From: Azolla caroliniana
Taxonomy: Eukaryota; Plantae; Polypodiophyta
Direction: 5' to 3'
DNA length: 64,000 nt
Assembly: GCA_043228905.1 (NCBI GenBank)
Contig: JBHGNT010000005.1
Span: 10,602,001-10,666,000 of the forward strand
A program made the translations under genes and the position numbers. Positions 5,693 to 63,000 of the stretch are shown in pieces (positions within the stretch are counted from its first letter, which is position 1; each line of letters starts with the position of its first letter). The notes below the pieces were generated by a model. The model ran no database searches. It saw only the letters and a program-made list of their open reading frames with translations, and was not told the origin of the DNA.

Positions 5693-7806
5693 CCTTAGTG
5701 CAACCCCCGGATTGGGCGAAGGAATTTCATGTGTTCGTGGATGCGTCCGACATTGCAATTGGGAGTGCGTTGATGCAACTTACGGAGCCAAGATGGTACC
5801 GGCCCGTATATTACGCAAGCCGGAAGTTATCCGAAGCCGAACGAAATTATTCCACCACGGAAAGGGAAGCTTTAGGCATGATCTACAGTGTAACAAAATT
5901 CAGGCATTATTTATTGGGAAGAAAGTTTTCCTTCCATGTAGATCATTCGGCACTCCTCTACCTAGTGTCCAAAGCGTCACTTACCGGTAAGTTGGCCTGG
6001 TGGACTTTGCTATTACAGGAATTCGAATTCGAGATATTCCACCGACCCAGCATACAGCATGCGGTAGCAGATTATTTAAGCAGGTTAGATTCCGGCGAAA
6101 CCGGCGAAGGAGTATCGGACGAGTTTCCGGATGCTGAGCTATTTCGAGTCACCACGGAAACGGCAACAGATGAAACGGTGGCACCAGAAGATAAGTGGCT
6201 AACAAATATGCACCAATTTCTGAGCACCGAATTGCCTCTGGAGGAGATGAACTGGGACGAGAGGAAATGCTTGGCGGTACAAAGCCGGCATTTCTGTTTA
6301 TTACGGGACACGCTATACCACAAAGGTTCGGACGGTATATGGCGACGAGCAGTGTGCAGCGACGAGAAAGAGGTAATACTACGGGAAGCACACTACAGAG
6401 TCGCCAGAGGCCATTATGCCGGGGATGCTACGGCAAGGAAGATGTGGCAAAGTGGCCTATGGTGGCCAACTACATTTAAAGACGCAGTCCGGTACGCGAA
6501 AGAGTGTGATCTATGCCAACGAATGGGCCAGCCAACGGAACAAGCTAGGATGCCGCACCAACCAGTACTACCACTAGAACCATTTCAGAAATGGGGAGTG
6601 GATTTTGTCAGACCATTTAAACCACCGGCAATGAGAACTGGCAACCGGTATGTGATCATCGCGACGGACTACTGCACTTAATGGGTGGAAGCCAAAGCCC
6701 TACGAGACAACACCGCGGCGTCGACGGCAAAATTCTTATACAAATACATTTGGTGCCGATACGGATGCCCCATAGAGCTAATAAGCGACCAAGGAGGGCA
6801 CTTTCTTGGACAGATAGTGGAGAGCTTGACATCATTCTATGCAGTAGTACATAAACGGAGCACCCCGTACTACCCACAACCCAACGGATTAGCTGAGTCA
6901 ACAAACAAAACGCTACAGAATATCCTGCGCAAGATCGTCAATGAGAATCGGGCAGATTGGGACACGAAGTTGCACAGCGCACTCTGGGCTTACCGGACAA
7001 CCTACAAAACAAGCATCCAAACCACACCGTTCCGGTTAGCATTCGGATTAGAGGCAGTCATGCCGGTCGAGTTCCAGGTATCGAGCTTACGAATCCAGAT
7101 TCGGGAACGACTTAATGAAAAGGAATCAGAGGCAATTCGGTTAAAGGCTCTGTGTGAACTAGAAGAACATCGACTGGCGAGCATCATGCACCTGGAATTG
7201 GAACAACGGCGACGGAAAGCGTTTGTAGATCGGCACCGGAAGGGAAACAAAAAGATGTTCTAAATCGGCAAGCCGGTACTAGTGTTCCAGACCCAGATGG
7301 GTAAAATGCCAGGCAAACTACGGTTTAGATGGACCGGACCGTACTGGATCACACGCGGGTTCAATGGGTCTTACCAGTTAGGGACACTTGCCGGCGAGGT
7401 GCTGGGTAAATGGGTCAACGGATTTAGACTAAAGCCATACAAAGGACCTATGCCCAAGAACCCATTTGAACGAAGGACCGACACCGAATCGGACGCCGTC
7501 AAGCCAACCAAGACGGCAACCTGTGAGGAAAACGGCTACCACCAAGCCGGTAAGGAGGAGCACGAACCGGCAATCGAGGAGAGCAAAACGACGGCAAACC
7601 GTCAAGAGGCCGACAAGATGCGTGTTTCGGGTAAGGGTCTGGTAGGACCAGAGGCGAAGTAACCTAATAATCACATATTAAATAAATAAAATAAATAAAT
7701 AAAATAAAATAAATGGAATGGAATCAAAGAAATCATGGAAAGGAGTGGTGGGAACAGCCATGCAAACGAGGAGTAAAGAGGCACTTCGAAAAGGTACGAG
7801 GAGGCT

Positions 7807-10800
7807 ATGAATAGGACATTAAACCACCGCCACATGGCACGTAATGCTATTATAGTACACAACCTGCACATGCGTAGGCTCGAAAAAGGCGCCAAGATGC
7901 AGAGAGAAAAACCCCCACGCATCGAGACCTTCTCCTTTCGCGAACCAAGGAAAACAGACGCAAACAGACGCGTGAAGATCAATCGAAGAGAGCTCGCGCA
8001 CAGAGAACCTTCTCACTCAGAACTTCCTCTCTCAGACTCCCTCCACCATCAAACCTCGCCAACGCTCTCCGACCTTGACGCAGAGATGGACTGCCAAATA
8101 CTGTCTGAAGCTGCCAAGAAATGGCTACGGCAACACAGATTGGAGGGTTTCTTGACGATCATGGAGGCGGCGCCACACAAGGAGGCCGAAAAGATTATCA
8201 AAGACATTGACACCGAGCTGATCACGGAGTAAGCGATCCGTGCGTTAACAGGCCTTCCGGAGGGGGGCATCTACATGATCGACAATCCTACCTCCGAGCA
8301 GCTCATCAAATATTTCGGTGAGTATTCTCTCGCCAGCAAGGGCTACAGGACACAGGGTGGCGAAGATATGTTATTCCGCAAAATTGCCTGTGTACTCCAT
8401 GAGTTTCGCCACGTATACCCCCGACCCCCCGTTATGCCTCAGAACAGAGCAGGCTTGATTATCGCAACATACGAAGGGGTCAAGGTGGATTGGCCGGTGC
8501 TGATCGCCGACGGATTTTGCGCGACTATTGATACTGTAAGAGGTAAGGAAGGCAAAGAAGGCCGGAAAATATGGCATGCGGTGACGCAATGGCTCACCCT
8601 ATTGGCGCCACCTGTCGAGCTCGTCCAGACCAAGAAACGGGGAAGAGCAACGGACGACACCCCGAAACCTGCTTCAAAACGGCAACAGTTGTTGGCCTCC
8701 AAGGCCACTAAGGGGAAGACGGCCGACGTAGAGAAGGCGGCAAAGGAGCGCGCCAGCCAGAAGCGGCCAACGGACACGCACGAGGAGACACCGGCACGGC
8801 CCCAGAAGAGCCCACTCCACCAACCGGTGCAGCAAGAAATAGACACCCTAGCGGCAAGAATGAATGTCGAGACTCAGGAGGAGGAAACGGAGGAAGAGCC
8901 TATGGAGCACCTCCAGCTGCGGCCAGTGAGGAGGACCGCAAAATCAGCCGGGAAGCGTTCAGACCCACAGAAGGATGGAACGCCCACAACCCACACTGAG
9001 AATCCCACGCCAAGGGAGGCACCGGAACCGGTTCGGACGGAACCGGTCACAGAAGTCCCTGCACAACAGGCAGCACCGGCAAGCCCCGCAACTCAAGAGT
9101 CGGTTATACAAATGCCAACCTCCTCAGCCGGCCAAGAACAAGCAGAACAAGTGCGGCCAGCCGAAACACAACCGAAACCTGAACGGCAAAGAGATTAGCA
9201 GGCAGAGCCGGAATTGCCGCTCAACGCAGTAAGGTAGGACCAGCCACCGGCAAGTGAACCCATCAGCCAACCCGCCGTGCAGACGCAACAACAGGGCACC
9301 GGCAACCAATGGCTTCGGTGGATAGGAGAACAAATTGCCGGAGTAGTCGGATACGTAGAGGCGGAAGAACGAGCGCAAATGGAACGGTTGCTCGTCACAA
9401 CCGATGAACTAGAGACAGCCCGGTCAAGGATCCGGTGCCTCGAACAAGAATTGGATCGGATCACAGAAGACATGGCCAAAATGGCCTTAACCGCAACACA
9501 GATCCAAGCACCGATGACTCCGGTGGATGTACATATGAATAAGACCCCGAAGACAGAAACTGTCTCGGAGAAAGATGCGGCGCAAGCCCAAGAGCTTGCC
9601 GACTTAAGAGACGAACTTGCCGCACAAGAAGCATTACGGAGCCGTGAACGCGACTTGAAGAAGGCGGCCGAAGAAGAATTAAAGAAGACTACTGAGAACC
9701 TCCGTCGGGCAGAGGAAAACTTGCGTAAAGGACATCAATCTTACGACCGGCTAAAGGAGGAAAAAGAGAAATTGTTGCAGGAGAAAGACAAGTTGCGATG
9801 GATGGCGGAGACAGAAATCGAAAGGCTGAAGGAAGAACTCCGTCAACAGAAGAACCGGGAGGACCGCGTGCGCCGGCAGATCAACCAAAGGCTGAAGTAG
9901 AAGACCGATGATTTTGATCATCTGCACCGAGACTACAAGCAGCTGGAGGTGGAGTATAAGAAACAGCAGGAAAGGCTGGCCGAGCTCCAGCAAGAAGTTG
10001 ATAGGGCCACAATGGCACTCGCCGACGAACGAGCTGAGAATTCAAATCCATTGGAGGAAGCGGCGATGGACCGGATGGAGCTCCACAAGCAGAACCATGA
10101 AGAAAAGGAAAGAGCGACAATGGTGTTACAGAGGTTGCAAACAACCTATCAAAGTCAATTGTCGCATTATAGGGAGCAGGAGGCGGACACGGTTAGAATC
10201 ATCAAGCAATTGAAAGAGGAGCGACAAGCCGCGGAGAACAAATCATGGATGGGAACCGAACGGATCCAGTGCATCCTCCGAGCATGGCTCACCAAGACCA
10301 AACGCTTGATTGACGAGAGCTATGTGCAATGGTGGACGAAATGGGCGCAGAATACGGCGGAACTCCAACTGCTCAGGGCGGACGTGGAAAACCGGCGGAA
10401 GGAAGGTGACGACTGTTCTACGCTAACATCGGAGGACTTCACCGCCATAAGGGATGAGTTGGCCGAAGATTTCACAACCTTGGCGAATGAACAATTGGTG
10501 TAGGTCCGGCAGCTCATAGCTCAACTGGACGACGATCGGCTGGAGGCTCAAATCTAGTTTGAGAGCTATGAGCGGTCCCGGCTCCGGGAAGAAAAAGCAA
10601 GGAAGGCGGCAACGGTCAACCTTAGTGATGAGGAACCGTCACCGGTACAATGACTAGACGGGAACCATGTCGGGGTCAGTCAGCCAGCGACAACTCCGAT
10701 GGAGGAAACAACGAAGGAAACGCCAGTGCCAGAGCGACAAACGGAGCAGTAGCCCCAAACGGAGAAGGCACAAACGGAGCAGCCACCGCAGCAGCCACAA

Positions 10801-14074: not shown

Positions 14075-17000
14075 TTGAATGCAGCTTCTTGTTCTAAGCT
14101 CTCTCTCTCATCCATGGAAATCCATGGACCACACAGGATTACAAGTCGAGCACATCATATATGCTCGAGAGTGCGTAGCCCCCTTTCTCACTCTAATCTT
14201 CAACTTCGCCCTCGCCGAGGGTTTTCCACCACAATGGACCATGAACACAGGGGACCCAATGGATCCAAATACATATAGGACCATTATGATAGGCCATACG
14301 CTCGCTAAACTATATGATGCGGTAATGGAAGCGGAGCTTAGCGATTATATGGAAACATTAAGTCTTCGAGCGCCTGAGCAAGCTGGCTTTAGATGAGCCA
14401 TCTCCACTATTGACCATATCTTCACACTTAGGTGCTTAATTGACCAGACGAAGGCTCGTAAGAAGAAACTATATTGTTGCTTTGTGGACTTCCACAAAGC
14501 CTTTGACACAGTTCTTAGGGAGAAGTTGTTTGATAAACTTAAGAGCTTGGAGATACCAAATGGCATGATCTAGGCCATTTATCCCCTATATGAGCAAGTC
14601 TCTGGGTGCGTAAGATGCCCAGGTGGCCTATCCGATTGTTTCACTCGCACCATTGGTGTAAAACAGGGTTGCCCCCTATCACCAACTCTTTTTGGGATCT
14701 ACATTGATGAGATCACTAATTTTATTGCTTGTAAGGGAGGCAAGGGAGTAGCTATTGGGGATACGCAAGTTAGTCTCTTACTCCACGCAGACGACATTGT
14801 CTTGCTCTCAGAGTCGGAACACGACCTACAAAAGCATCTTAATGCCCTAGATGACTTTTGTACACAACGAGGACTAGTAGTGAATCTCGTGAAAACTAAA
14901 GTCCTTAGCTTTCATACATCGTCCCTAGTTAGGAGTAAATGTCACCTAATCCTCTCTCATAAACTAGTTGAGGTAGTTGGATCATATGTATACTTGGGAG
15001 TCACTTTTAGTGCTTGCTCAGGTAAATTCTCGATGACCCAGGCAGCCAAAGATAGGCTAATGAGAGGGTATGCATCCCTCTCACTCTTAGAGAGACAATG
15101 CCACCAAGCATACTTTCAAGAACCACGGACTAAGGGATGGCTCTTCGACTCATTAGTGACCCCTTCCCTCATGTATGCATTAGTAATATGGGCTCCAGGT
15201 CTACCATCTTTCATGTGGACGCAATTAGAGAGACCTTTGGTGACGATGTTATCACGTCAACTCCGAAGCAAATCGACAGTACCACATGACATTATTAGAG
15301 TAGAGTTTAGTTTGCCCCCGATGTTAGTAGAAGCACTGTTTCTAGTGGTAGTTTTTATTCATCAGATACATAGCCAACCACAAGATAGGATGTCCCGTCG
15401 AGCCTTTGAGGCATTTCGATCCCTACATGCCTCTGGAGACACTAGCTCTTGGTATAGCACTGTGGTGAGTTGGTTACTTGTAAACGGCATAGACATTAAT
15501 AACCTACCCCCCTTAAGTACAACAATGGGACTGACCAAACTCTAATATCTCATGAAGACCATAATAAAGTGATACGCCGAGAAATATGGTAAATTTACAC
15601 TCGATATAAATGGACCACCCCACGAGAGACACTCCCATCTAAAATGTTGTACTATAAGGAACACTTCTTGCTCTTCTCTCAGTTAGGTTTTATTACACAA
15701 CCAAGATATCTAGATACATTCTTATCAAATGCACTAAGGATCGCCATTGGACAACTTAGGATATCATCTCACCAAGTTGAGATTGAGAATGGTCGGGCTA
15801 ATAAAGTCCCTAGGGAGGAAAGGCTATATAGGTTGTGCCACATAGAGATTGAGGATGAGTATCACTTCACATGCAAGTGCCCAACTTATGCCGAGATACG
15901 AGTGGAATACCAAGACATTTTAGGACCCTCTCCCACCCTCTCCAAACTATTAGATACCTCGGATGTAAAGAGACTAGGTAGGTATATCTTAGAGCTAAAA
16001 CAACATAGGGAGAATAAATTACAAAGTGTTAACCATAACCCTTTTACTATTCATCAACTTGTAACTAGTGTAATTTTTCAGGAACAAGGGGAGACGATGA
16101 ATACGGTTACACTTACGCCGCTCGGCCTCTCTCTTGAGGAAGCCGAAACGCAAAGAATAACCAAACGCCCTCGGATGTTGGGCTTCAAAACAAGTCAACA
16201 CAGAGTAGAAAGGATTAAAAAGATAAGGGAACGTGAGCTACGTTGTCGTGCCTTTCAGCTCTGGATCGTTGCGTGAGTCGGGTGGAACCGTTGGGGTTTT
16301 GGACTAGGAGAAAAGAAAATTCTAAGGCAATGAAGAATATGAAATATGTTGTAAGGAAGAAAGATATAAAAAACTCGTGAATCCCACGAGTATAGTGTAT
16401 TAGTGAGTACTCAGATTAAGAGAGAAAAATAGTTAGCCAATTCGTGAATCCCACGATTATATTATATTAATCCACCCTTGTAAAATAAGCAACAACCCCC
16501 CATACATCTTTCTCTCCTCCTTATATAAGGATGGAAGAGGCGAAGCATAGCTTCATGCTTTTTCTAAAGTGTTCATGCACACTAAATGTGCATGAGTTGC
16601 CTTTTTACACTATGCTTTTATTTCCTAAATATAGTGCTCATGCTCGCTAGATGTGCACGAGTCTTTTTTTTATTGGTGTACATTTTTCTTATAAATAAAG
16701 TATTCACGCATTCTAAAAAATGCATGACTTACCTTTTAATAAAGGTAGGCGTAAATAGAGGTCTTATATGTATTAAATCTACATTTAAAACAATTAGGAT
16801 AAGTTAGTACAATGGTAAGGTTAGGGTTTGTCTATGTGGAGGTATAGGGTTTGAATCTTGCCCTATGCTCTTAATAAATATTTTTAATATTTTATTTTAT
16901 TTATTATACCTACTTTAAATCGGATATAGTATTTTACATATTTTACGTAGTGTGTGATTCACACTATGACAACGTCAACTAGAAGCTATTGTTGCGATAC

Positions 17001-21339: not shown

Positions 21340-24300
21340 CAGAATATAAAGTGTCTATTTGATTTCTTGATTAAAAGTTTAATTGATTTCTCCTCATCCG
21401 AATATCCTTTTATCGGAATATCATCCAAGAATGGCATCGGGATGTCCGGGATGCAATCCTTCAAGACCTTGTTCATGGCATTCACCATATGAACCACCGA
21501 GTTCGTTGCACCTTGAGGCAAGGTACACATACGCACGAGCCCAATCGGAGTCCTCATGGTTGTAATGTCACGACTGTCCAACTGGAATTGGTCGTATCCA
21601 AAGTAGAGATCGCCAATGGAGTAGATGGATCGCCCCGCAAACGCTTCGGCAAATTCGTCCATGCTCGGACCGATTCCAGCATTCCGAATTGTCACCTTGT
21701 TGACATGTTGAAGATCTTGGATGAATCACAATGATCCATTCTTCTTCGGCACCGTGAACCACCTATTAGAATAAGGAGCATTCGACGGTTCCAGAATTCC
21801 CATATTCACCTTCTCCTTTAAGATCTCGATCAATTTCGGTAGGTGTGCTCTCGGAATCGGTTTCGGTTTCAAATTCCAAGGCACATGCGGCACCGTGAAG
21901 ATTACCATCGGCTCTATTGTCCTTGGATCAGCACATCTGATTTCTTGTGGGAAAAATGCGAAGGCGTTCCCATGTCTCTCAAGCATGTCGCGAAACATTT
22001 GCTCCTCTTCAAGGAGGAGGAAATTCTCCCTTCCAACTTGTAGCTTTCCTTTCGTCTCTTCGGTGAAGACATGACCTATTTGCCTTTGGATCTCTTAAGC
22101 TTGGATCGTTACCGACTTCCTTCATCTTTTGCCAGCTATCTTCCGATATCGGAACTGCAACTGGCTTGATCTTCCTATCCACCGTTTTATATTTTGTGTT
22201 GATGTCAGCTTCGTTCATCAAGATGCTTCGATGATATTCATCGATGATAGCGTACATGTTGATGGAGTTAACCGAAATCACATGTCGATCGTGAAGATAG
22301 CTCAAGTCCACGACGTCCTTGATTTCGCCGATGGTGTCGTTAAATGAGGCTTCTTCCATAATATGAGTCACGAACTCTTCTTCTTCTATTATGTTTTCTT
22401 CTTTCAGCATCTTCTCGAAGTCTTGTATCCAACGCTTGTCTTTCTTGTCGGGTAGTACTAGTTTACATGTGCCACTAGGTGTGACACATGTGGCTTCTCC
22501 TCGCAATCCACGCGCTCTACCTTCTTGTGGGGACTTGTGATCGCTCAGACTATTTGTGCCCCATGCATCAATAGTCCGCTCTAAAAATCCGAGGATTCGC
22601 CTCCAAGACTATCTCAATTTCTTTCATGATTAGCTCGCACCGTTAGGAATTGAACAGATCTTTGATTGTCAAGACTCTTGATTCACGCAAAAGCCGGGCT
22701 CCATTATCGAACAACTTGGTCTCCATTCGAGATGATGTGATATATGGTTGACCTAGGATGACAGGATGCGAAGCCGATTCTTGCACGAAGAAGTGTTGAT
22801 CAATCTCCACATCCCCGATCATGACTTTAACATTCAGACAAGCTCCGTACAAGTCTTCTGTCGCCTTTGTTGCCGCTCGAATCTTCCATCCGTGGTTTGT
22901 ATTAATTGGCCACCTTCCTTTTTTGTAGAACTCGGTTGACATGAGGTTGATCTCTGAGCCATGGTCGATCAAGGCTACCACGGTCTCATTCTTCTCCCCA
23001 ATCTTCACCGGTGTCTCCATTGTCACTCGTGCCCAATGAGGTCGAGTATAGTGGTTGTCCACCATATCTTCATCGACTTCATCCCTTGCCATCGTTATGG
23101 CATTTGTTTTTCCTTTTTGTGGCTTCTCTTCTTCCTCATTCGACTGTTGCCTTTTTCTCTTCACAAGGTCCACAATCGTATCATGGAACTCCTTCTTCGT
23201 AATACCGAGCAATTCCCTCAAGGACAAGGTCACGTGGCTATCAAGAACACATTCCTCAAGAATCTTCTTCAAACCTGTCATTTACTCTATGTCCGACCTT
23301 AGCTTATAGGTAGGCATAATTCTTGTCTTCCGAGCGGGGTGTTCAACACCAACCTTCACGGGTCAAACCGTTTCTTCGACTCGTTTGCTCGACTCCCCTT
23401 TCCGACTCGAGTCTCCTTCCTCCGTTTGTAACGCTCAACTCGTTTCTGCATCTTCTTTCTTTTTCATGTTCCTTGTTTCATGTCTTTTTGATGGGCTTTG
23501 CTCTTCTATTCTTTTTCTCTTTTCTTCGACGAACACCTCGTGGTTGTCGCACATCACTTCCGTGAGTATGGTGTTGTCATCCATCGGATCCGACCATCCG
23601 GTGATACTTTGTACACTTTGGTCCACAAGCCCTACCTCATTCAAAGTGACTTTTCCCTTCTTCTCATACTCGAGAACGGTAGACTAGAACTTTGCTCCCA
23701 CTTTCGCAGCTTCAGTTTTGTCTTTCCCAACTCTTATTCCGGCCAACGCAGCATAGTGCATCGCATCCACATGAGTCGCCTTGGCATCCTCCATAGCTTT
23801 CTTCATTCCCCCTCTTTCGAAATTCACTCACAGGGGTCTTCTAGACTCACTCGAGCAATTCATGTTGCCATCCATGTATAAGATATTTTGTCGAATGGCA
23901 TCTCGAAGGCTCGCGCAATCCCTTCTCATGTGGTCCATGCTATCGCACCACATGCATCTAAAGGGTTCTTTTCCTTTGGGGCCCCGACGATTAATGTTGG
24001 CTAGCGTGACCATCTCGCACTTCTTTGCTACTTCTTCGATGATGTCGTCATCAATCTTCTTTTCTTCCGGGCTGCTTTGTTTGGGCGGCTCAACTACTTT
24101 CGATTGTCTTGTTTTCTCCACGACATTCGATCCCGCCAAGCCAGTGTCATCAACCCACTGACAACGCTTGTCAAGCCTATTGCACGCCCGCTTCACCACA
24201 ATCCAGTCTGCCACAAGCCCGTTTGCTTGGGTATCATCTTCAAGAAGAGTCCCCAATTCTCGTCTATCCTTCATGTCCACAGCTTTCAAGAAGCACAAAG

Positions 24301-25426
24301 TCTTGTCCTCCTCAAACAGCAGTTGGTCCGTGGCGAGAAGACGACAAAACATTTGGTCGAACTCGTCGTACACCCTCGAAGCACTCATCCTCTTATTCTT
24401 CTTTTCTATCCACTTCATCAAGGCATGTCGAGTCATCCTCGACAAATCTTCCGTCACGAACTCCACTAATATCACTTTCTCGAACTCCGACAACATTTTC
24501 TTCCCTTCTTGAAGCTCGATGACGCACCTTTGGACGTTGTTGGCGACCACTCTCTTGAAACTTACGATTTGACGTGCTTCAGACACGTCCCTCTAATTCA
24601 TCTCCCTTCTATATGCATCAAGGAACTTTGTAATGTTCCTTCCGTCAAATTCACCCTCGAGCTCAACAACACGGTCGACAGCCTTCTCCACGCTCACATC
24701 GTTGTCCCGAGATCTCATCATTTGTTCGACGATTAGCATCATCCTTTCAAACTCTCCCGCTTGATTGCTTGAGGACGCCATCTCCAAGTATTAGTCGATC
24801 CTCGACTTGATCCTTCCTACCACCTCTTTCACATCGGGTTCACCACTTAATTATGTCGTGAAGATCCGTCACTACGTGCGGATCGTGAGGCGGAACCGTC
24901 GGGGTTCTGGACCGGAAGGATTCGAAGTTTGCACTAGCTTTAGCGAGAAAGTATTTAAGATAGATTGAGAGATATTGATATGACGAAAGAGAGATATTGA
25001 GATAAAGATTGAACTTTTAACTTTTAGATTTAAGAGAGAAGATACATCAACAATAGGATTACAAGTTTCTTATTTTTCCCAAATTTTTCATTAGTTTTTC
25101 ATTAGTTTTCTCGCTTGATTCCTCCACTCTTTTATAGATGCCCCCATGCATATGGTGCATGTGAGGGTGTAAGACATGCACGTAATACATGAAATGCTTC
25201 CAATGCATGTTTGCCATGTCATCATCTAAGCTCTCATGCATGGGAATTTACATGTGAAAGTATAGTGATGAAAATATAACTTCTAAAGAAATGGTTTGGC
25301 TTAATGGTAAGCCTATTGGCTCATAACTTGGAGGTGCAAGGTTCAAGCCTTGCTTATATGCCTTTTAAAGTACAAAATTACTATTAGGCTTTTGGTCTTG
25401 TATTTACACCGAAAATCTTTATGACA
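21340..25426 (-). mobile_element. Truncated Ty3/Gypsy element of the fungal-like 'LPQGATNS' (Ylt1-like) type: RT 21340-22050, protease 22643-23281, gag 23400-24787, tRNA-Trp PBS 24829-24845, 5' LTR 24854-25426
   Basis: PWNLKP.PIPRA, PYSNRWFTVPKKNG, DLYFGYDQ, LPQGATNS, FLDD; ALIDHGSEIN; CMWCDSMDH...C knuckle; PBS TGGTGAACCCGATGTGA. Confidence 0.85.
25290..25366 (+). other. tRNA-like (Met/CAT) Pol III A-box/B-box cassette inside a Gypsy LTR
   Basis: TGGCTTAATGGTAAGC (A box, D-stem GCTT/AAGC), loop CTCATAA, GCAAGG-TTCAAG-CCTTGC arm with B box GGTTCAAGCC, TTTT at 25363-66. Acceptor stem is poor. Confidence 0.6.
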
Positions 25427-27689
25427 CCACGCACCGCGATCGACCCATTTGTCTGGTCTCGTCCGTCCCGACCGGTTCAATCTGATCCTGATCCCATCCG
25501 GTTCGTCGCCATCTGGTCCCGGTCTTGGTCGCCGGATCCGTCCAATAACTGTTGGCAGTCGTCGTCGCTAGTTGGCCAAAACCTTTACAAGTAGTTAGGC
25601 CACACCTATTCATTTGAATAATTTAGTACAAGTAGTTAGGCCACACCTACACCTTGAACTCTCTACGCTCCACGCATAGACACAAAATAATAGCTTTTGC
25701 CTCTGTGTTATATATTGTGGAATCCAACGTTGTCCTATCTATGTGGGATATCTCACACTTTGTTTTCCTTCTCTTTCTCAAACTTCACACTCACATAACT
25801 TGTCACTTAAATGTCTGTTTCTTATGTGGTAAAGTGTATTCGAAAGCTCTTGAAGACCTCCATCTTTTTGTACCAAGATATTAAACTAGTATAAAATAGT
25901 ATTTTTACTATTATTGTTTTATGTTGTGTGTGAAGAACCACACTCGATTTTGTACATTCCATTCAACTTTACGACACCGAATTAAAAACATTAGCCCATG
26001 TTAGAAAATTCATTGGCTCGAGTTAGACGTGACAAAGCCAGGACAAAGTCGAGCTAGTTATCTATGCATTCTTTGTGTGGATAATGATCTGATGGTGTAG
26101 ATTTCACGAGATTATTGAAGTGCTCCTTACATTGCCCATGACCATGATTCCCTCGTGAGGCTTATTTAATATTTGGTTGCAAATAGAAATGTGGTTATGG
26201 TACTACATATGTATGTGTATTCATATCATTTTGTGATGATGTGTATGAAAGTGAAAGTGAAAGTATGTGATATGTTTATCTAAATGGGTATGTGTAAAAA
26301 GTATGCCAATGTGAATGCACATGTATGTGTGGTTACATGTGTGTAGATGTGTGTGTGCAAGCATGGGAGTGGAAACACTTTTAGAGCTATCATGTAGCAA
26401 AGAAGGCAATAAACAATTAGCTATTGTTTTAGTTGCTTGTTTAGTATGTGAATTTTAAAGGTGCATATCATTTATTATACATGGACTAAAATACATATGG
26501 AAATGCCCAAATTCAAACATTTGGCACATATAGGGGAACGTGGGTTTTGTGTATTCATGTTTGGGCCTTTAATGTTAATACACTCCCTCCTCATCCTTAG
26601 TATTTACATCGAATATCAAATATATGGAGCATTGCTCACATGATTGCAAAAATAGTCCTTGCATCAACAACAAAATGCAAAAATTAGTTAAATCCCTTAT
26701 TACAATTGGTGTTACAAGGGACCTCATTGCCTCTTCCTCTAAGTAGTTATCAATATATTTGTGGTTGTATTTTATTTTTTTCTTAAAATGAATTGCTCAT
26801 AGGTTATATTTTCTTGTTGATTGTAGAAAAGTTTATCACAATTTGCATCACGCACTAGGATGTCACAAAAGCAAGTATGTAACAAGTCAGATTTCATTAC
26901 GATTTTGATTACAATCGTATATGTATACATTTAAGGCTAACATGTAATTAGGGTTTTGGTTACAACTTACAAGCATATTTTGTCAAGTATGTAATAAGGG
27001 TTAACAACCATACATTTCCACTAGATTAATTAATTTCTAAACTGGATTAAGATTTAGAGTAGGGTTAACATATCATCACTTAGGGTTAGGATTCAGGAAC
27101 ATACATACATTGATCGGTACAATCAAATTATGACAAATATGTGGTTAGGGCTTGAATCACATATACTGTATACATATTAACTATCTCGATTTGGTAGAAG
27201 GTGGGATTCAAAGCCATTCTTCCAATTGATTGATTTATTGAATCACATATGTACACTTATACACACACATTTAGAAAAGACGTATACATGAATGCATGAA
27301 TGCAAAGGCACTTGCACTTGCACATACACTTACGAGGAATAAACAATTACACATACATACCCTCTTCATCCTCTTAAATACAAAAACCCATTATACACAT
27401 TACATCAATTCAATCCCATGTAAACACATAACTACTCACTTAGTATTTACTTACATTACACATTCTGGCACACTTGATTGGTATGTACAAGTTCATATGC
27501 ATTTCCATTCCTAAAGATTGCACCTACAAGTGCACCATGCTCAAGTCATGAAGGGAATATTCAGTGCATGCTATTAACATTATCATCTTTCACGACCCTT
27601 CATCGACAACACTGTCTTCCTCAGTTTAGGGCATACATGTATCATTGTGACATAGGGCAATCATTTTGTGAGGAACTAGGTGGTTGTTG

Positions 27690-29941: not shown

Positions 29942-32900
29942 ATGGATTATCATTCCCTGCCAAGACGCCAGCTCCAGACCCTGTGCAAGATGCATGGCAT
30001 TCCTGCTAATAAGACCAACATGGAAATGGCCAACTGCCTGTCTGCGCTCCTAAACGTAAGCATATCATCTATACTTATCTGTGTACTCTACTCTATCTCC
30101 TTATGCCTTTTTCTGTTTCATTTTAACTTGTCGGTTATACCTATTTTCGGCAGAGAAAACCAGAGCTTGAAGCTGGCGCTAACATGGAAATCGATGCCTC
30201 TGAGGCTACGCCGAGGCCTGCGCTTCGGAAAGAAGATAATGGAGATTATGAAGCTTCTCTACTTCTAGAGAAGGATAATTGTCCATATATGGACACCCCT
30301 TCTAACAGTGTAGAACGGCAACAAGAGAATGTATGGGATGAAACCGAAAACAATGATTTTGGTGGCCGGAGCATGCCTCGGAAATGTATGGTCGATCCCT
30401 TGGTTACTCAATCAAGATTAAAGAAAGGGTCAGTTTCATTCTCTGAGACTGTGGAGGTGAAGGTGATGCAGAGTTATGAGGATCCTGTTGTAGATATGAC
30501 ATCTCTTTCTAACGTGAAGAAGACCAGAACTAGCACAAGGTTGTCGGTTGGAGGAACTCCCACTGCAGCCACCCCTGTTGGAAGAAGAAGCTCTGTTTTG
30601 AAGAGCAGTGTTTCTGAATCTGAAACTGTTGTCCAGAAAGTAGCTAGTGTAACCCGATCTAGCGCAAGGAAGGGCTCAGTATATTCTTCTTCTGAAGAAA
30701 TAAAAGCTGAGAAGGCTGATAAAACAACCTCCATTTCTGTTTCTCGACGCCGAAATGCAAATGTTAGTTTGATGAGTAATGCTTCCACTAAAGTTGAAGT
30801 CGAAGATACTGTTGGCAGAAGTAGACCTCCGAGAACTCCGAGAGCTGCATTGAAGAAGAATAATGGGCTTGATAGCGTTTTGTCAGAGATTTCAGCTGTA
30901 GATGACAATAATGTATTTGTTACTCCTGCAGTAACCTCTGTTAAGAAGAGCAATCGGTCTACTTTAGGCGCATTGGAGAAGAAGCATTTGGATTCTGCAT
31001 TTGAACGTGTGGATAAGTCTGAGAATGAATCGAGCTCTACTTCTGCAGACATATCTGAAACGCCACATAAGTTTGACATGGCTGATAGTGGTTTAAACTG
31101 TAGAGTCACAAGAGGATCCATTGGAAGGATTACTAGGAGTGCTAGTAAATCTTTGATCTCTGGTCAGACTGCAAACAGGATTGAATCGATTCCAATAACA
31201 CGAAGGAATACCAGGAAAGAGCAACTGCCTTCTGACACTCCTGATGCGAGAGATGGAACTGGCTGTTCTACGAGAAAGACTGTTGCTCGGACACCATGCC
31301 TTAGTAAGGATTTTGAGGGGCTTACCTTGTCTGATGATATTCAATCCAGCTCCGAGTTCTCAAACATTTCATTATCTGTAGTCAAAGGTATAAACTTATT
31401 TATGAGATTGAAATTTACTTCGTTTTTGCTACTTATTACTGACGAGCTCGTTAATCTGGATTTGTGTGCGTGCAGTGACCGATCCAAATGATGGACGAAT
31501 TGAGTCTAATGTTGTGGCTGAACATGTTTTCAGCAAGGATGCTTGTGTGGAGAATTTAAGTCAAGCTCTCCCTTCAGAAAGTATAATTAAGGAACACTCT
31601 GAGGATATCTCTTCCTTACACAGTGTAGAAAATTCTTCAGCTAATTCCAATGCACCAATATGTGTTCTTCATTGTACAATTGAAGAATGTCCGGATGAAT
31701 CACCCTCTAAAGAGGATTTGCTAGATGTTGATGATGTTGGATTTCTTGAGAAATCCGAGTCTGCAAATGTTGATGAATTTATAAGGGGGACGCTACTATC
31801 TCTAGTGGAGAACACAGTGCTTAATTCCGATTTTCAGAAAAATACTCATGGGTATCATGGTACTGAGGAGAATGGTATTCAGTCAACACTTCCAACGTCT
31901 TATTCTACAATATATTCTGAATCATGCAATTCAGAATTGCAAAGCAATGCAAGTGAATTATGTGCCTCAGATTGTGATAACGATGTCCAATCAAAGATGT
32001 TAAATGAGGCAAAAGCTGAAGAAGATAAAAAAGAATCAGGGGAACCTCATGTGGACACTAAAGGTAATGGTTTGTCTGAACCTCAGAGTGAAGAGGTAAG
32101 CTTTAATGATGTCATTTTAAGTTCAAAAACCCAAGCCTCTTCCGCCAGCGATGTCAAAATAGTAGCTTCTTGTGCTGAAAATAATGGCCTCGTTAATATC
32201 AATGAAAACGTGACCTTGGAGAATGTAGATGTAGGGGGCAGTGATACTGTTCTTGACTTGCCCATCTTTTGTAATGATATTTCTCCTACCAAGTCTCCAA
32301 AGACAAACTCTTTGAATGCATATGAAGATCAAGATACTAAGTTCTGTACGGAAGAAATAAATGAAGGCATGGAACCTCTGGAGGTGTGTGATGGTGTAGA
32401 TGCTACACTTTCTGTCATAGAATATAATGATAATATGGAAATTTCGAAACTTTGTTCAAGAATTGAGGATGAGGGAACCATGAAAGATACTGAAGCATTA
32501 GATGAAACTCAGTCTGGTGAGCATGTTTCTACTGAAATGGAACATCTGAAAGAGCCTAAACATCTGGAAGAAACTCTTTGTGCTGTAGATGTCAATGAGG
32601 ATATTAAGCCTTTGGGTGAGCCTGCATACATGGGTTTGGCTTCTGATGTGAGTAAGGAATCTGTAGAAGAGCGTGATGCTGAGGTTGAAGCATGTATCAC
32701 TGTAGAAGGTAGTGAAAATTTAGAATCTGAATCTGTAAACCCGGTATCTAAAAATGCGGCAGCTGAAGCAGAAATGTGTACCATGGAAAATGTGATACCT
32801 GAAAATGCAATGGCTGACATTGATGTGATAGTACAGAAATTTGCTGATTTGAGCACTTCTGTGGATGAAGTTGTTGAGATTTCATCAGACATTGGTCAAA

Positions 32901-34358
32901 CCGATGTTTCCTTAGTTGAAGAAGTTGACTGGATAGGAAGTGATGTGATAGTTGGTGCAGTTTTGGAAGGACATCATAGCATAATAGCAGAAACAAATGT
33001 ATCTAGTGAAAATGAGACCAAGTCTATTGAGGAACCATCAGATGTGTATATGGAAGTAGGATGTGAAGATGATGCTCAGTTACCAGAATCAGTAAATGTG
33101 TGTGCTATCCAGCTAAGCGAGGAAACACAGCCAATTCCCAGTAATGCCACTATTGTACAGAGTGAACTGATGCAATCGCTAATGGAAGTTGATCTGATGG
33201 AAAGCATGACAGATGAAATAAATACATTTAGTGAAACGGAGGGCATGTTTATAACAGAACCATTAGTTGTGGGTATGAAAATAGAAAGTGAAGATGATGC
33301 CCAGTTACTAGAAGCAGCAAATGTGGATGCCATCCAGTCATGTGAGGAAGCAAAACTAAACCCCAGTAGCACCATCATTACAGAGAGTGAACTGATGCAA
33401 TCACCAAAGAAAGCCCAGTTATCCTCCTTGAGCCTGAGAAAGCTTAAAGAGATGGTAAAAAAGAAGGATAAAACTAAGAGTAAGGTTTCTGAGAGTGCGG
33501 TGGTAGTAGAAACTACTGAGGTGCTTCCGATAGATATTGCTCAAAGCAAAGCAACAGACAAAGAGAAACCTAGTGAAAAAAATCTGTCAGTTACACCCTT
33601 GTCTGCCGTGAAGAAGCCATGGAAGCTGTCATCAAAATTAATGAATAATACAACCTTGTCTCAATCAAATGATTCTCCTTCATCTGTAAGTTTTGACATC
33701 ATGAAAGAGGTTTTTAATGAAGTAAAATTTCCTTACAAATTTATAAGACTTGAGTCTTATCAATTGAGTTACACGGATTTGCTTTGTTTCGTTTCCTTCT
33801 TGCAGGCTGGAAAGCGATCTGCTTTGAAAAGTTTGCCTTCAAACGTGAGGCAAGCTTCTTCAGGAGGAGGAACTCCTACTGGAAAGCTTGGGAGCCTTGC
33901 CCATGGTGTAGGAAAAGTGCAATCACCAGCATTGGATCATAGTGATACAGGTAGATAAAATATTTCATTTAATTCATTTGTGATGCTTGAGCTTACACCA
34001 TGGGTCAGCATTATTGTTTGATTTTCTTCCTATCCATCCATTATATGACTTGAACATTCATTAAAACCCATGATTGTGAAATGAGCAATCCATGAAATTT
34101 GAACTTTTGCTGTGGATCCATGTTATTGCCAGATCTGTTTAGTGTTTTTTAGTGGGAGCTTCCACCATTTATCCTAGTTTGTCATTAGTTAAACTGTTCA
34201 TTCAACATATGGCTCAATATTCTCTGCAGTTGTATGTCTAAGGTCATAACTTTTTGTTGCTTGAAGGTACAGAGAATCGACTGGTGATGACACCGAGCCG
34301 TTTGGCATTGAATTCATGCCAAAAGATTAATCATTCAGTGAGATCTCTCCATCGATAA
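29942..34358 (+). CDS. Uncharacterised Asp/Glu-rich plant protein (~1264 aa) with SAP-like N-terminal motif; exons 29942-30055, 30154-31387, 31476-33685, 33806-33950, 34267-34358
   Basis: All GT-AG junctions are phase-consistent (3795 nt total). N-terminal MDYHSLPRRQLQTLCKMHGIPANKTN and late LSSLSLRKLKEM motifs resemble a conserved plant family. Basic S/T/R-rich region followed by an acidic region. Last exon is less certain. Confidence 0.85.
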
Positions 34359-44547: not shown

Positions 44548-46062
44548 TGTTGAGATACAAGCTCAACATTGGCCGGATCGGCTGTGCAAGCCAAGTACTG
44601 GATCGGTTTGGACTGATCGGTTAGGCCGGATCGGTGCGTAAACCGGTGTGTAAACTGGTGCGCAAACCGGTGAGCAACAAGAGGCCGGATTGGTGCGGAA
44701 ACCGGGAGGCCGTTGAACAGATATTCCGTGAGGGAATATATTTGGGAGTTAGTGTAGGAGCTCAGTTATGAGCATTGAAGTACGTGTCAGTACTTCTGTC
44801 AGTCTGTATGGACTTGTATAAACGTGGTCTTTGAGCACATCCTATGTACAGAGTTTCACACATTATTTTGAATTTAGTTTTTTCTGTGTGTTCATTCTCT
44901 CTCTGTCTCTCCCACATACATTGTGTCTTAAGCTCTCCATTAAACTTGTTTTATCCCTGTCGGTATTTTGTGTCTCATATAGCTTCCACATGTAACATTT
45001 CACATAGTATCAGAGCGCGAGGGTTGAGAACCTCTGCAGCCGACTTCAGGTCGAAACAAAAAAACTAATCTCGGTGAAGAATAGAAAGATAAAAAAAGAG
45101 GATAGAGGTATGGCTAGTTCGCTTCCAATTGAGAAGCTCGACAGAAGTAACTACGCATCTTGGTCGTACAAGATGCACCAGTACCTGCTCGGACATGGAT
45201 ACTGGAGCTATGTCGATAGAGCGAATGATGCAGCACCCGAATCGACACACAAAGACTTCCTGGCTTGGGAACAATCGGCGAGTAGAGTTCTCTACTGCTT
45301 CGCGTCCTGCGTGAGTGAACAACACTTGAGCTACATTTGGGATGCAAGAATATCGAAGGATGCTTAGTGAAATCTGAAAAAGATTTTCGCCGCAAGCACC
45401 ATAGCCAAGAAGCTCCAACTCCGACAGGAGTTGAGCAATGTGCGTCAACGTGACATGACGATGGCTAACTACACCTCCAAGATAAAGGATATCTGCGACT
45501 CCCTCGCTTCCATCGATGTGAATGTTGAGGAGGGCGAAATGGTGCAGATCTGCCTCGGAGGATTGGCGTCCAAGTTCGGAGCATTCAGAACTGCTATTTG
45601 TACAAGGGAGAATACGCCGTTGTTTTTCGTCTTGCAGTCGATGCTCCTTGTAGAAGAGAATCATGTGGGTGCGTCAACGAGTATGCATGCTGACAACAAG
45701 ATGCTGTACACGAAAGGAGATAGGCCCTGTGGTCGTGGCGGACGAGGCGAATCAACACGCAATGGAGGCGGCCGGCAGGAGCAAGGAAGAAGGCATCGTG
45801 GTGATGCCGACAACAATTCCGGACCCTCCGGAATCAAGGGGAGTCGAGGAGGTCGTGGTGGACGAGGCGAGTCGACGCGCAATGGAGACGACCGACGGGA
45901 GCAAGGAAGAAGGCATCGTGGTGATGCTGACAACAATTCTGGACCCTCCGGAAGCAGGGGGAGTCGAGGAGGCGACAAGAACCGGCAAGGGAAACATGCC
46001 GCGGAATGCTGGTATTGTGGCAAGAAAGGGCACAAGGAGAACGAGTGTTGGAAGAACGAGTG
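44548..46062 (+). mobile_element. Truncated Copia: LTR 44548-45004, PBS 45005-45016, gag 45110-46060
   Basis: TGTTGAGATAC...TTTCACA followed by TAGTATCAGAGC. gag with CWYCGKKGHKENEC and a 108-bp internal tandem duplication. Confidence 0.9.
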
Positions 46063-46249
46063 TTTGATATCTCTAACCTAGGAAGGGTAAACACCAATTA
46101 CACTAGACGACATATTAGTTCTTAAAAAATCCACTACATGAATAACACAATTCATATGCACACCATAAACCTTTAGTTATTCATGAGTAAGTGTTTGCTT
46201 TATAATTGCACCTGTTCCATCATGTTTGTGTTGGTTCCGTGCCCCTCAT

Positions 46250-54713: not shown

Positions 54714-55148
54714 TTTATGTTGCACATTTATATAATTAAAACATTCTAATGTTTTCATTCATGGTGCAAAAATGACTATTTATCATTGGTAGCTTTTTGC
54801 AAAGCTAATTAGCTATGTCAAGGACATAGCTAATTGTTTCCACTCCCATGCTTTCACCCATAACTTCATCTATCTATAGAGGTGCTTCCGTCAGTGTGAA
54901 ATGTTACGTGTGGAAGCTATACGAAACATTTATGGTGCTCAGCTCATTTATATAATTAAAACATTCTAATGTTTTCATTCATGGTGCAAAAATGATTATT
55001 TATCACTAGTAGCTTTTTGCATAGTGAATTAGCTATGTCAAGGACATAGCTAATTGTTCCACTCCCATGATTTCACCCATAACTTCATCTATCTATAGAG
55101 GTGCTTCCGTGAGTGTGAAATATTACATGCGGAAGCTATACGAAACAC
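54714..55148. repeat. ~215-bp tandem duplication spanning an LTR/flank junction
   Basis: tttat..tgc..catttatataattaaaacattc...tgtgaaat.ttac.tg.ggaagctatacgaaaca occurs twice (boundary at ~54929). Confidence 0.85.
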
Positions 55149-55650
55149 AAAATACTGACAAATAAAAAACAGGTTTAATGGAGAGCTTAAGTAACAATGT
55201 ACGCGGAAGAGACAGAGAGGAAAAAAAACACAAAAAACTAAATTTGAATAATGTGTAAACTCTCTACATAGGATGTGCTCAGAGCACTTTTATACAAGTC
55301 CATACGGACTGACAGAAGTACTGACACGTACTTCAATGCTCATAATTGAAGTCCTACACTAACTCCCAAATATATTCCCTCGCGGAATATCTGTTCAACC
55401 GCTCCCGGTTTCCGCACCGATCTGGCCTCTTGTTGTGCACCGGTTTGTGCACCAATTTACGCACCGGTTTACCCACCGGTTTATGCACCGATCCGGCCAA
55501 TATTGAGTATGTATCTCAACACACTCCCCCTCAAGCTCAACTTGAGGCTCTTCCAGTCCTTCACTCTAGTTTCTCTTGACTTCACACCTCGCTCTCACTC
55601 CTCGACCTGTTCGATTCTGCACGCCTTGACCCTTACGATCGGCTTGTCTG
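55114..55650 (-). mobile_element. 3' LTR (55114-55521), PPT and 3' UTR of a minus-strand copy of the 44548/46250 Copia family
   Basis: Reverse complement of LTR 46250-46637; cactcccccctcaag (PPT, reverse complement) follows. Confidence 0.9.
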
Positions 55651-60024: not shown

Positions 60025-63000
60025 TGTCAGGAATAGTACTAAAGCAAAGATGGAATTAGTACTAAGAAGAGTAGTACTATTAGTACTAAGAGGACGGGAC
60101 TGCGTAAGATTCTCGAGAGAGGAAGTGAGAAGAGGAGAGAGAGAGAGATAGCGAGGATGAGAGAGAGAGAAGAATGATGACAACAGCTAATATATTATGT
60201 GAAAAGATAAGTACAAAGCGGCTGAGAGGCTTAAGACTGGCGTTGAACCAATTTGGTTCAACATAATGCCTAGTGCCTGTCAGGAATAATCCTGAAACTT
60301 CTAGAATGTTCCAGAGAGATCTGGAATATACATTACTTTCTTATAATAAAAACATAAATGAAAATAATTTCTTATGAATTACAATAGAAGGTGTGATGGT
60401 TAAGAGCTCGACCCATATACCATAAGGTCATGGGTTCGAGTCTTGCCATATCATGATACTATCTCCCCCTTAAAGACGACGAGTGGAATGAGTCGGCACT
60501 GATTGCGGACCGGGTTTGTCCGGATACTTTCGGTGAAAATCAGCAAGCAGATCCTGAGCATTGGCAACATGCTTGACGGGTTCCCAAGTGCGTTCGCTCG
60601 GACTATAACCCACCCAATCAACCAAATAATAAAGTTTGTTGCGAATAAGTTTGGAATCGAGGATGGCAGCAACTTCATACTCCGGGCCAACGTCCAACTC
60701 CAGCGGGGGCGGCGGTGGTGTAACACGATCGGGAATGGTGTTTACTTTATAAGGTTCAAGAAGAGAACAATGGAAAACCGGATGTATCTGAAGCTGCGGC
60801 GGGAGATCAAGGCGGAATGTGACATCATTAACTTTACCCGTAATACGGAAAGGACCGAGTCGTCGATAATCCAACTTGTCGCATGGTCGAGTAGTCTTGA
60901 TGTGACGACATAAGAGCCATACTCGATCTCTGATGGCAAAAGAGGAGGGAAGCCGATGACGATCCACGTAAGTCTTCTGTGTCTGTTGAGCATGACGAAG
61001 ATGAGTCGAGAGATCTGTTTGGATCTTGCGTAGTCTCTCCAAATGATCCCCGGCATGAGGATTGGTAGGTAGCTCAGGGGTGTCGATCACCGACTAGCGA
61101 GGATGAGAACCGGTAGAAGCGTAGAATGGGGAGACTCGAGTCGAGGAGTGAACAACATTATTATACGCAAACTCCGCAAAGTGGAGAATCTCGGCCCAAT
61201 CGTCCTGTTGATAACTCAGGAAACACCGGAGATATTGCTCTAGCGTTTGGTTTGTTCGTTCTGCCTGCCCATCGGTCTGAGGATGGTAGCCGGAGGAGAG
61301 GTTGCAAGAGACCTTGAGCATCTTAAAGAGATGTTGCCAAAATTTGGAGACAAATTGCGGTCCTCGGTCACTGATGATACTATCTGGGAGGCCATGATGC
61401 CGAAATACCTCACGCATGACTAGGGCGGCGGTTTCCTCGCTAGTGATGGCCTTAGTACACGAAACAAAATGTGCCATCTTCGTATATCGATCGACGACGG
61501 TTAAGATAGCATCGAACCCCTGCGAGACCGGCAGATCTGTGATAAAATCAAGACAAATATACTGCCACGGCTTACTTGGAATCGATAAGGGTTCTAACAA
61601 GCCATATGGATGGTGTCGTGGCATCTTTGCTCGGCAGCAAGCATCACAGGTCTGAATGTAGTCGTCGACAAAACGGCGTATGTGGGGCCACCAAAAAGAT
61701 CGATGCACTAGCTCCAACGTCTTAGTACTACCGAAATGTCCCGCCGTATGGGTGTCGTGACAATGTTGGACGATTTGAAGGCGACAGGAGCAATCGGGGA
61801 CATATACACGCTTTTTAAAGAATAACAAACCATCATGATATTCGAATTGTCGATAGTCAATACCTGGTTGTTGAGACTGAGAACAGGATGCCCGAGAAGT
61901 ATCAATGTGCGCCAGGATGTCTTGAGCAAAACTATCCGTCTTCAAGTTTGCACGTATGGCATCGGTAATCCGTGAATCCATTGGGGTGTGAAAAATCCGC
62001 GTCGTGTGCAATCGTGTTGGTCCCAAGATTACTTGCTTTTGATTATCAAATGTTGGATCACCAGGACGAGGTGCAAGATATGAACGCCGTGATAGTGCAT
62101 CTGCTTTTCCTTGCTGCTTCCCCGGTCGATATGTGATTTTGAAGTCGAAACACGTGAGGAATTGCGCCCACCGAGCTTGCCGTCAATTTAGTACGCGAGC
62201 GTTCTGGAAATAAGCAAGATTTTTATGATCACTAAAGACAACGACCTGATGTGGAGAGCCCTCCAAGAAATGTCGCCATTGCACAAATGAATCCACGATG
62301 GCTAATAACTCCTTGTCATGTATTTCGTAGTTGATTTCCACAACATCGAATTTGCGCGAATGGAAAGCCACCGGATGCAACTCTTCTTTATCTCCTTGTT
62401 GAGAAAGGATGCTACCAAGGGCGAAATCTGAAGCATCGGCCTCCATGATGAATGGTTTGCTAGTATCCACATGAGCTAGAATCGGTGCTGATGTAAAGGC
62501 TTTCTTAAGATGCCGAAAAGCCATATCTGCTTCAATGGACCAAAGAAATGCTTGGCCCTTCTTTGTAAGTTGTGTGAGGGGTAGGATAATCTTCGAGTAA
62601 TCCTGTATAAACTTACGGTAGAAGTTAGCAAAACCTAGAAAACATTGTACATCTCGTACCGACCGTGGAATTTGCCACTCTAGTACAGTTTGGACTTTAG
62701 CTGGATCCATGGCGATGCCCTTTAAGGAGATGACGTAGCCTAGAAATTCCACTTGCTTGCAGTCAAAGCTACATTTTTCTAGCTTGGCATAAAGACCATT
62801 CTCGCGGAGTCGCTTTAGTACTAATAGTACATGAGAATCGTGCTCTTGTTGGGTCTTCGAATAAATCAATAGATAATCAAGATAGATGATCAAACAGATA
62901 TCCAAGAGGTCTCTGAATATATCATTTGCCATGTGTTGGAAGATTGCGGGTGCATTGGTTAGGCCGAACGGCATAACAGTATACTCGAAATGCCCATACC

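What the first reader, a model, noticed from the sequence alone, without database searches (positions are those of the whole stretch)
25290..25366. tRNA-like Pol III cassette built into a Gypsy LTR, recurring in LTRs of two lineages
Seen: A box TGGCTTAATGG with paired D-stem GCTT/AAGC, Met-type loop CTCATAA, variable loop GAGGT, hairpin GCAAGG/CCTTGC carrying B box GGTTCAAGCC, then TTTT. It lies ~60 bp from the U3 end and antisense to the element. Comparable A/B boxes sit at the equivalent position in the related solo LTR (16805-16860) and in the unrelated Tcn1-like LTR (60389-60445). Known: Cassandra TRIMs carry 5S Pol III promoters in their LTRs, and TFIIIC-bound B boxes can act as chromatin boundaries. 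Inference: these elements may have captured tRNA-derived promoters as a fixed LTR module (insulator against silencing, antisense small-RNA source, or Pol III promoter). I do not know of this being described for these lineages.
Basis: partly seen in the sequence, partly recalled or inferred. Interest (0 to 1): 0.85.

Follow-up and report, generated by a model that had tools for sequence, protein, structure and literature searches.

The report
tRNA promoter boxes inside Gypsy LTR
One branch of plant jumping genes carries a decayed tRNA-gene-like sequence, with both promoter boxes at the right spacing, built backwards into its end repeats just upstream of its own TATA box; it is not a working tRNA and likely serves as a docking site for the RNA polymerase III machinery, a design already described in gene-less mini-elements but not found in our searches for protein-coding ones.

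Summary
The motif is real: 25297-25350 meets 16 of 16 tRNA invariant positions, a score never reached in 40 shuffles. It is not a tRNA (ARAGORN and Rfam negative; cloverleaf not kept). Two details are wrong. The Met loop is copy-specific (relatives read CTT or CCT), and the LTR runs 24854-25976, so the module lies about 610 nt, not 60, from the U3 end, 160 nt upstream of TATA. The host element is Phygy-like (tRNA-Trp PBS, NCGN sites). The module is a built-in LTR part in one gag clade (7 of 9 scorable rows) and absent from 8 of 8 scored rows outside it. A second, sense, decayed copy lies downstream of TATA. Within the family the boxes are not significantly better conserved than neighbouring U3 (p=0.22); between LTR types only the module aligns. 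The Tcn1 recurrence rests on one copy (13 of 16). Closest known: Helenus/Cassandra (sense, gene-less). The scan noted LTR-borne tRNA-like promoters before in fungal and diatom DNA, not this sequence. Verdict: new variant of a known kind; function inferred; interest 0.45.

The parts
24854..25976 (-). 5' LTR (1,123 bp) of a Phygy-like Ty3/gypsy element
   Evidence: End at 24854: over 100 loose ends in each of three runs and 53 in the fourth. Start TGTCG at 25976 with an NCGN flank; colinear with the L002 LTR.
25290..25366 (+). Decayed tRNA-like module, antisense to the element, ending in TTTT
   Evidence: 16/16 invariant positions; not a tRNA.
25297..25307 (+). A box
   Evidence: 0 mismatches to a recalled A-box pattern; fits the Helenus TRGCY..YGG description.
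25340..25350 (+). B box within a T-arm-like hairpin
   Evidence: T-arm pairs 78-89% kept over 9 modules.
25130..25137 (-). TATA box of the LTR Pol II promoter (inferred), 159 nt from the A box
   Evidence: TATA-proximal block is the best conserved region, 0.87.
25006..25061 (-). Second, sense, strongly decayed tRNA-like module downstream of TATA
   Evidence: Orthologous place scores 15/16 in L004 and L015, 14/16 in L017, under 13 in the window.
25409..25426 (-).
   Evidence: Resembles LTR starts of L021, L016 and L004 but lies 550 nt inside the LTR.
24830..24845 (-). Primer-binding site, tRNA-Trp type (tRNA identity recalled)
   Evidence: Same PBS in the related loci; Phygy PBS is tRNA-Trp in 81%.
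21387..24781 (-). Broken gag-protease-RT region, cut off inside RT
   Evidence: 58% (gag) and 87-88% (pol) identical to the intact L009 proteins.
16244..16971 (-). Solo Phygy-like LTR of another type, ACGT target-site duplication
16805..16858 (+). Antisense module of the solo LTR, 276 nt from its TATA
   Evidence: 14/16; aligns to the L002 module.
60389..60443 (+). tRNA-like sequence at the start of a Tcn1-like 3' LTR (about 60027-60457, inferred); one copy only
   Evidence: 13/16; partial HMM hit E 0.005; chromodomain integrase next to it.

Best explanation
The sequence is a decayed tRNA-like A-box/B-box unit that sits antisense in the U3 of one clade of Phygy-like Gypsy LTRs, 160-205 nt upstream of TATA; it was likely captured from a tRNA gene or SINE head, and likely works as DNA, binding TFIIIC and so keeping the neighbouring Pol II promoter open. 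Steps: (1) capture into an ancestral LTR (inferred); (2) copying into both LTRs at each reverse transcription, so the clade inherits it (shown by its fixed place in orthologous LTRs); (3) loss of acceptor and anticodon stems while the box positions persist (shown); (4) TFIIIC binding, with or without a short divergent Pol III transcript (inferred); (5) a boundary or chromatin-opening effect, helped in some subfamilies by a second, sense unit on the other side of TATA (inferred from recalled yeast and animal tDNA insulators; untested in plants here).
For: 16/16 invariants at canonical spacing. Present in 7 of 9 scorable rows of a 100/100 gag clade. L006, whose LTR aligns with the window's type only in U5, has two antisense modules (15/16, 16/16), one at the same 160 nt from TATA. 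Between LTR types invariant columns are 10-12 of 12 identical against 16-22 of 37 others. The tandem pair in L006 keeps 11 of 12 against 23 of 37 (p=0.053). The cloverleaf and anticodon are not kept, nor is the terminator position (T4 at +66, +67, +87, +94, +105, none near in L017), which fits a DNA-level role better than an RNA product.
Against: Within the family, selection on the boxes is not significant: 3 of 12 invariant columns vary against 16 of 37 others (p=0.22), and 51% and 31% of 11-nt windows are at least as conserved as the A and B boxes. L020 has lost the module by deletion and L022 carries another LTR type; the sister clades, which include intact elements (L009, L012), lack it. 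Several copies have C56 changed to T (L002, L006a, 16805). The between-type pattern is also expected of independent captures of tRNA-like DNA. No binding or chromatin data.
Confidence: 0.45

Rival explanations
1. Neutral relic: an old tRNA-derived SINE head landed in an ancestral LTR and is carried along without function; similar captures recur because such heads are common.
For: Module identity 0.78 against 0.79 for the neighbouring U3; p=0.22; T-rich tail downstream in several copies; losses in L020 and absence from intact sister elements; Kojima proposes SINE insertion as the origin and notes that 'not a few LTRs' hold tRNA-like parts.
Against: Boxes, spacing, orientation and distance to TATA persist between LTR types whose other U3 sequence no longer aligns; identity falls to 0.35 just beyond the module.
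Confidence: 0.35
2. The module is a Pol III gene for a 70-110 nt antisense RNA with two hairpins that acts as RNA (small-RNA source or decoy), like foamy-virus LTR Pol III RNAs.
For: A non-cloverleaf two-hairpin model is 79% paired with 6 of 14 pairs changed on both sides; 11-47 of 500 shuffles reach the covariation and pairing measures. TTTT follows directly in the window and L002.
Against: That structure was derived from these sequences and the rows are related; 158 of 500 shuffles reach the pair-type count; the terminator position is not conserved; folding z -0.83.
Confidence: 0.12
3. Independent, copy-specific SINE insertions into AT-rich LTR sequence.
For: Some contigs join the module to other flanks (loose ends near 25301-25346), so other contexts exist.
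Against: Same position in six orthologous LTRs without indels across the module; no shared target-site duplication; no free copy in 206 kb searched.
Confidence: 0.05
4. Chance resemblance to tRNA.
For: No Rfam or ARAGORN hit; loose box scan at chance level.
Against: 16/16 never reached in 40 shuffles of 206 kb; four real sites reach it.
Confidence: 0.03

Closest known systems
Helenus (TRIMp3; Kojima 2024, PMC10886601; parts 1-4 of 6 of the text and passages read, supplements not read)
   Same: tRNA-derived sequence in the LTR, conserved around boxes A and B, not a functional tRNA, proposed origin by SINE insertion; one plant family (Selaginella).
   Different: Helenus elements are 311-1263 bp, gene-less, and the promoter is proposed to make the template RNA. 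Here the LTR is 1.1 kb, has a TATA box, belongs to gag-pol-coding elements, and the best-kept unit points away from the element, so it cannot make the genomic RNA.
Cassandra TRIM (PMC7215508, passages; PMC10886601)
   Same: Plant LTR element with a captured Pol III internal promoter in both LTRs.
   Different: 5S-derived, gene-less, drives its own transcription.
Phygy non-chromovirus Ty3/gypsy (Neumann et al. 2019, PMC6317226; passages and one supplement row)
   Same: 4-bp NCGN target sites, tRNA-Trp PBS, about 8 kb, RT-RH-INT without extra domains.
   Different: No tRNA-like LTR module in the passages seen; no RT tree with reference Phygy sequences could be built.
Foamy-virus LTR Pol III microRNA cassettes (PMC7104284, PMC7693620, PMC3993851; search listing and abstract starts only)
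   Same: Pol III units inside the LTR of a protein-coding retroelement.
   Different: Their RNA products are demonstrated; here no RNA is shown and no terminator position is conserved.

Membership tests
tRNA gene | Cloverleaf with paired acceptor, D, anticodon and T stems | tested here: not met
   Acceptor 27%, D 64%, anticodon 58%, T 78% paired; no excess covariation; ARAGORN and Rfam negative.
tRNA gene | Stable anticodon | tested here: not met
   CAT in the window, CTT in 4 and CCT in 1 of 5 relatives.
Type 2 Pol III promoter | A and B boxes at tRNA spacing | tested here: met
   (patterns recalled).
Type 2 Pol III promoter | TFIIIC binding and Pol III transcription | not testable with these tools
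   No ChIP data; no RNA holder listed.
Helenus / TRIMp3 | tRNA-derived sequence in the LTR, conserved at boxes A and B | tested here: met
Helenus / TRIMp3 | Short (about 1 kb or less), non-coding TRIM | tested here: not met
   1,123-bp LTR followed by gag-protease-RT.
Helenus / TRIMp3 | Pol III promoter placed to transcribe the element | tested here: not met
   Main module is antisense; the sense copy is decayed in the window. The sense orientation of Helenus is inferred from the paper's model, not stated in the passages seen.
Free SINE insertion | Own target-site duplication and copies outside LTRs | tested here: inconclusive
   No shared duplication and no free copy in 206 kb, but no whole genome was held.
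Phygy | 4-bp NCGN target site | tested here: met
   ACGT duplication at the solo LTR, TCGG flank at 25976, loose ends ending in ACGT.
Phygy | tRNA-Trp PBS | tested here: met
   the tRNA-Trp 3' end is recalled.
Phygy | RT-RH-INT order, no chromodomain, 7.7-10 kb | tested here: met
   On relatives L009 and L012; the window copy is truncated.
Phygy | Clusters with reference Phygy RT/RH/INT sequences | not testable with these tools
   No reference set; nearest named proteins are from the liverwort Riccia at 55-63%.
Tcn1-like LTR with fixed module | Module present across copies of the family | not tested
   One copy in the window; no related locus in viral contigs.

The most novel reading that the evidence does not exclude
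Protein-coding LTR retrotransposons of non-seed plants insulate themselves: a Phygy clade brackets its Pol II promoter with two divergent tRNA-derived TFIIIC sites, and a Tcn1 chromovirus has captured the same kind of site on its own, giving portable chromatin barriers that spread through the genome in every solo LTR.
Probability: 0.2. Interest if true: 0.75.

Novelty: new variant of a known kind. Interest (0 to 1): 0.45.

Why it matters
Known Pol III promoters in plant LTRs (Cassandra, Helenus) belong to gene-less mini-elements and are thought to make the template RNA. An antisense unit next to the TATA box of a coding element cannot do that, so if it is under selection it points to a different use: TFIIIC as a shield against silencing. 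Near-identical elements with and without the module (L002 and L020) make this testable. It also offers a route to TRIMp3 elements, since a coding element's LTR already holds a sense unit (L004, L015). If neutral, it is only a marker of one subclade.

Tried and rejected
No whole genome is held, so the genome-wide copy test could not be run. No RNA holder listed; this says nothing on expression. Summed contig depth peaks over the module, the TATA block and U5, but the tool states that such depth cannot rank parts, so it is not used. Viral contigs gave nothing. A search for real tRNA genes in the loci's records was not possible, so no comparison with host tRNAs was made and the source tRNA is unassigned. 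One search used a structure string that I had put out of register; replace it. RNAalifold gave only a weak consensus (-3.05 kcal/mol). The profile matched only its three training sites. A landing-pad role (insertions stacked in front of the module) was not seen in the 10 antisense modules printed. Rejected: Met tRNA, functional tRNA, U3-terminal position, lineage-wide presence. Rows left out of the tree: 15 of 43 loci without a PBS followed by 500 nt; 13 of 29 rows carried no label, mostly for too little upstream sequence. Family-wide presence in the Tcn1-like LTR and in the 16 kb solo-LTR type remains open.

Full report
Setting. The window is a nest of Copia, Gypsy and LINE fragments. No whole genome is held. 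The finding lies in the 5' LTR of a minus-strand Gypsy element whose gag-protease-RT region runs from about 24781 to 21387 and is cut off inside RT. The LTR ends at 24854, where 109, 104, 121 and 53 contigs of four runs break off, their flanks ending in ACGT. A tRNA-Trp-type PBS follows (tRNA identity recalled). Neumann et al. give Phygy 4-bp NCGN target sites and a tRNA-Trp PBS in 81% of 186 elements. Intact relatives have RT-RH-INT without a chromodomain, and the nearest named proteins come from a liverwort. I call the element Phygy-like; a tree with reference sequences was not possible.

The observation. The boxes, hairpins and T run are in the sequence as stated. A loose A+B scan does not beat chance (3 hits; 0-4 in 12 shuffles). 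A scan for 16 recalled tRNA invariant positions does: 25297 scores 16/16, and in 205,914 bases all 9 sites scoring 15 or more are modules in these LTRs, against 0.33 per shuffle. The module is no tRNA: ARAGORN finds none in the window or in 43 loci, Rfam gives no tRNA hit, and over 9 modules the acceptor stem is 27% paired with no excess covariation. The anticodon position reads CTT in 4 and CCT in 1 of 5 relatives, and contigs carry C or T at 25323 in every run (63 and 58 contigs in X1), so the Met loop is a feature of this copy.

Position. The window is colinear with the complete L002 LTR up to 25922, and further loci match up to 25943. A TGTCG start with an NCGN flank lies at 25976. The LTR is 1,123 bp; the module is about 610 nt from its 5' end and 159 nt upstream of TATA, pointing away from it.

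Is it a fixed part? A gag alignment brought 43 related loci from metagenome contigs. A module profile hits L001, L002, L004, L006 (twice), L015 (3' LTR) and L017, always antisense in U3, and nothing outside LTRs above the reversed-sequence control except one weak hit in gag. On a tree of 29 rows these fall in one clade of 12 (100/100): 7 of 9 scorable rows have the module, L020 has lost it by deletion, L022 carries another LTR type, and 3 rows have too little sequence. None of 8 scored rows in the other 17 has it. Of 32 contig pieces listed (of 14,327), 7 bridge 25297 with 31 or more letters on each side, in all four runs and three organism labels. No shared target-site duplication flanks the module. 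So it is inherited with the LTR in one clade, not inserted copy by copy, and is not lineage-wide.

Is it under selection? Within the family the evidence is weak. Over five LTRs the module has 0.78 identity, the A box 0.70, the B box 0.78, the spacer between them 0.81, the adjacent U3 0.70, the TATA block 0.87, R 0.51, and the sequence beyond the module 0.35. Leaving the window copy out, 3 of 12 invariant columns vary against 16 of 37 others (p=0.22), and the neighbouring U3 has 0.79. Between LTR types it is stronger. L006 aligns with the window's type only in U5, yet has two antisense modules (15/16 and 16/16), one 160 nt from TATA; the solo LTR at 16244-16971 aligns with L002 only across the module and with other LTRs only in U5. 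Invariant columns are 10-12 of 12 identical between types against 16-22 of 37 others, and 11 of 12 against 23 of 37 in the L006 tandem pair (p=0.053). This fits one capture kept by selection, but also repeated captures, since any two tRNA-derived sequences share these columns.

A second unit. Downstream of TATA, in sense, L004 and L015 hold another tRNA-like unit (15/16), L017 a weaker one (14/16), and the window a decayed trace at 25006-25061. In these subfamilies two divergent units bracket the TATA box.

The Tcn1-like copy. A chromodomain integrase ends next to 60389-60443. The sequence has a clean B box and resembles an L006 module (z 8.6), but scores 13/16, a level common in shuffles, gets only a partial profile hit (E 0.005) and has no T run nearby. 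It is one copy; whether the family carries it is untested.

Mechanism. An antisense unit in U3 cannot make the genomic RNA. The stems and terminator position are not kept while the box positions mostly are, so I favour a DNA-level role: TFIIIC bound 160-205 nt upstream of TATA, keeping the promoter open (0.45; the insulator role of tRNA genes is recalled from yeast and animals; one search gave a listing only). A neutral relic is nearly as likely (0.35). An antisense RNA with two hairpins has modest support (79% paired; 11-47 of 500 shuffles for four measures, 158 for the fifth; structure derived from the same rows; 0.12).

Known and new. Helenus TRIMs have tRNA-derived LTR sequence conserved at boxes A and B, include one Selaginella family, and are proposed to arise by SINE insertion; the paper also says that not a few Repbase LTRs hold tRNA-like parts and expects coding partners not to share long LTR stretches. 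Cassandra has 5S promoters. Foamy viruses have Pol III RNAs in their LTRs (listing). I recall a fish retrovirus with a tRNA gene in its LTR, but one search found no paper. Searches gave no report of an antisense tRNA-like unit in Phygy or Tcn1 LTRs; the library lacks most subscription papers. Earlier notes of this scan describe LTR-borne tRNA-like promoters in fungal and diatom DNA but nothing like this sequence. Verdict: new variant of a known kind, interest 0.45.

Noticed in passing
window 25006-25061 (-); L004 1200-1255; L015 42-97: Second, sense tRNA-like unit downstream of TATA, so that two divergent units bracket the promoter.
   Followed up: partly
window 25409-25426 (-): An LTR-start-like motif inside the LTR, suggesting a compound LTR formed by recombination or template switching.
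   Followed up: partly
window 60000-60457 (-): The Tcn1-like 3' LTR is followed within about 20 nt by a Copia gag; insertion next to the Copia PBS or a shared LTR.
   Followed up: no
window 60294-60311: A four-unit heat-shock-element-like motif (recalled pattern) in the Tcn1-like U3, the only one in the window.
   Followed up: no
L006 660-870: Tandem duplication of a 140-bp unit carrying the module; both copies keep the boxes.
   Followed up: yes
L020 about 2440; L022 1-970: L020 lacks about 150 bp including both boxes although its gag is nearest to L002; L022 pairs this clade's gag with another LTR type.
   Followed up: partly
L015, L016, L021, L032: Internally deleted derivatives that keep gag and go straight to PPT and LTR.
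   Followed up: no
window 44548-47483: Tandem duplication of a Copia LTR-gag segment (1.2 kb, 89% identical), with an inverted LTR copy at 55114-55521.
   Followed up: no
window 52689-53047: Palindromic TAGCTA-rich repeat array giving sub-threshold Rfam microRNA hits.
   Followed up: no
window 7777-10503 (+) and 30127-33958 (+): Long reading frames with no Pfam match, the first set strongly A-rich and downstream of a Gypsy integrase.
   Followed up: no
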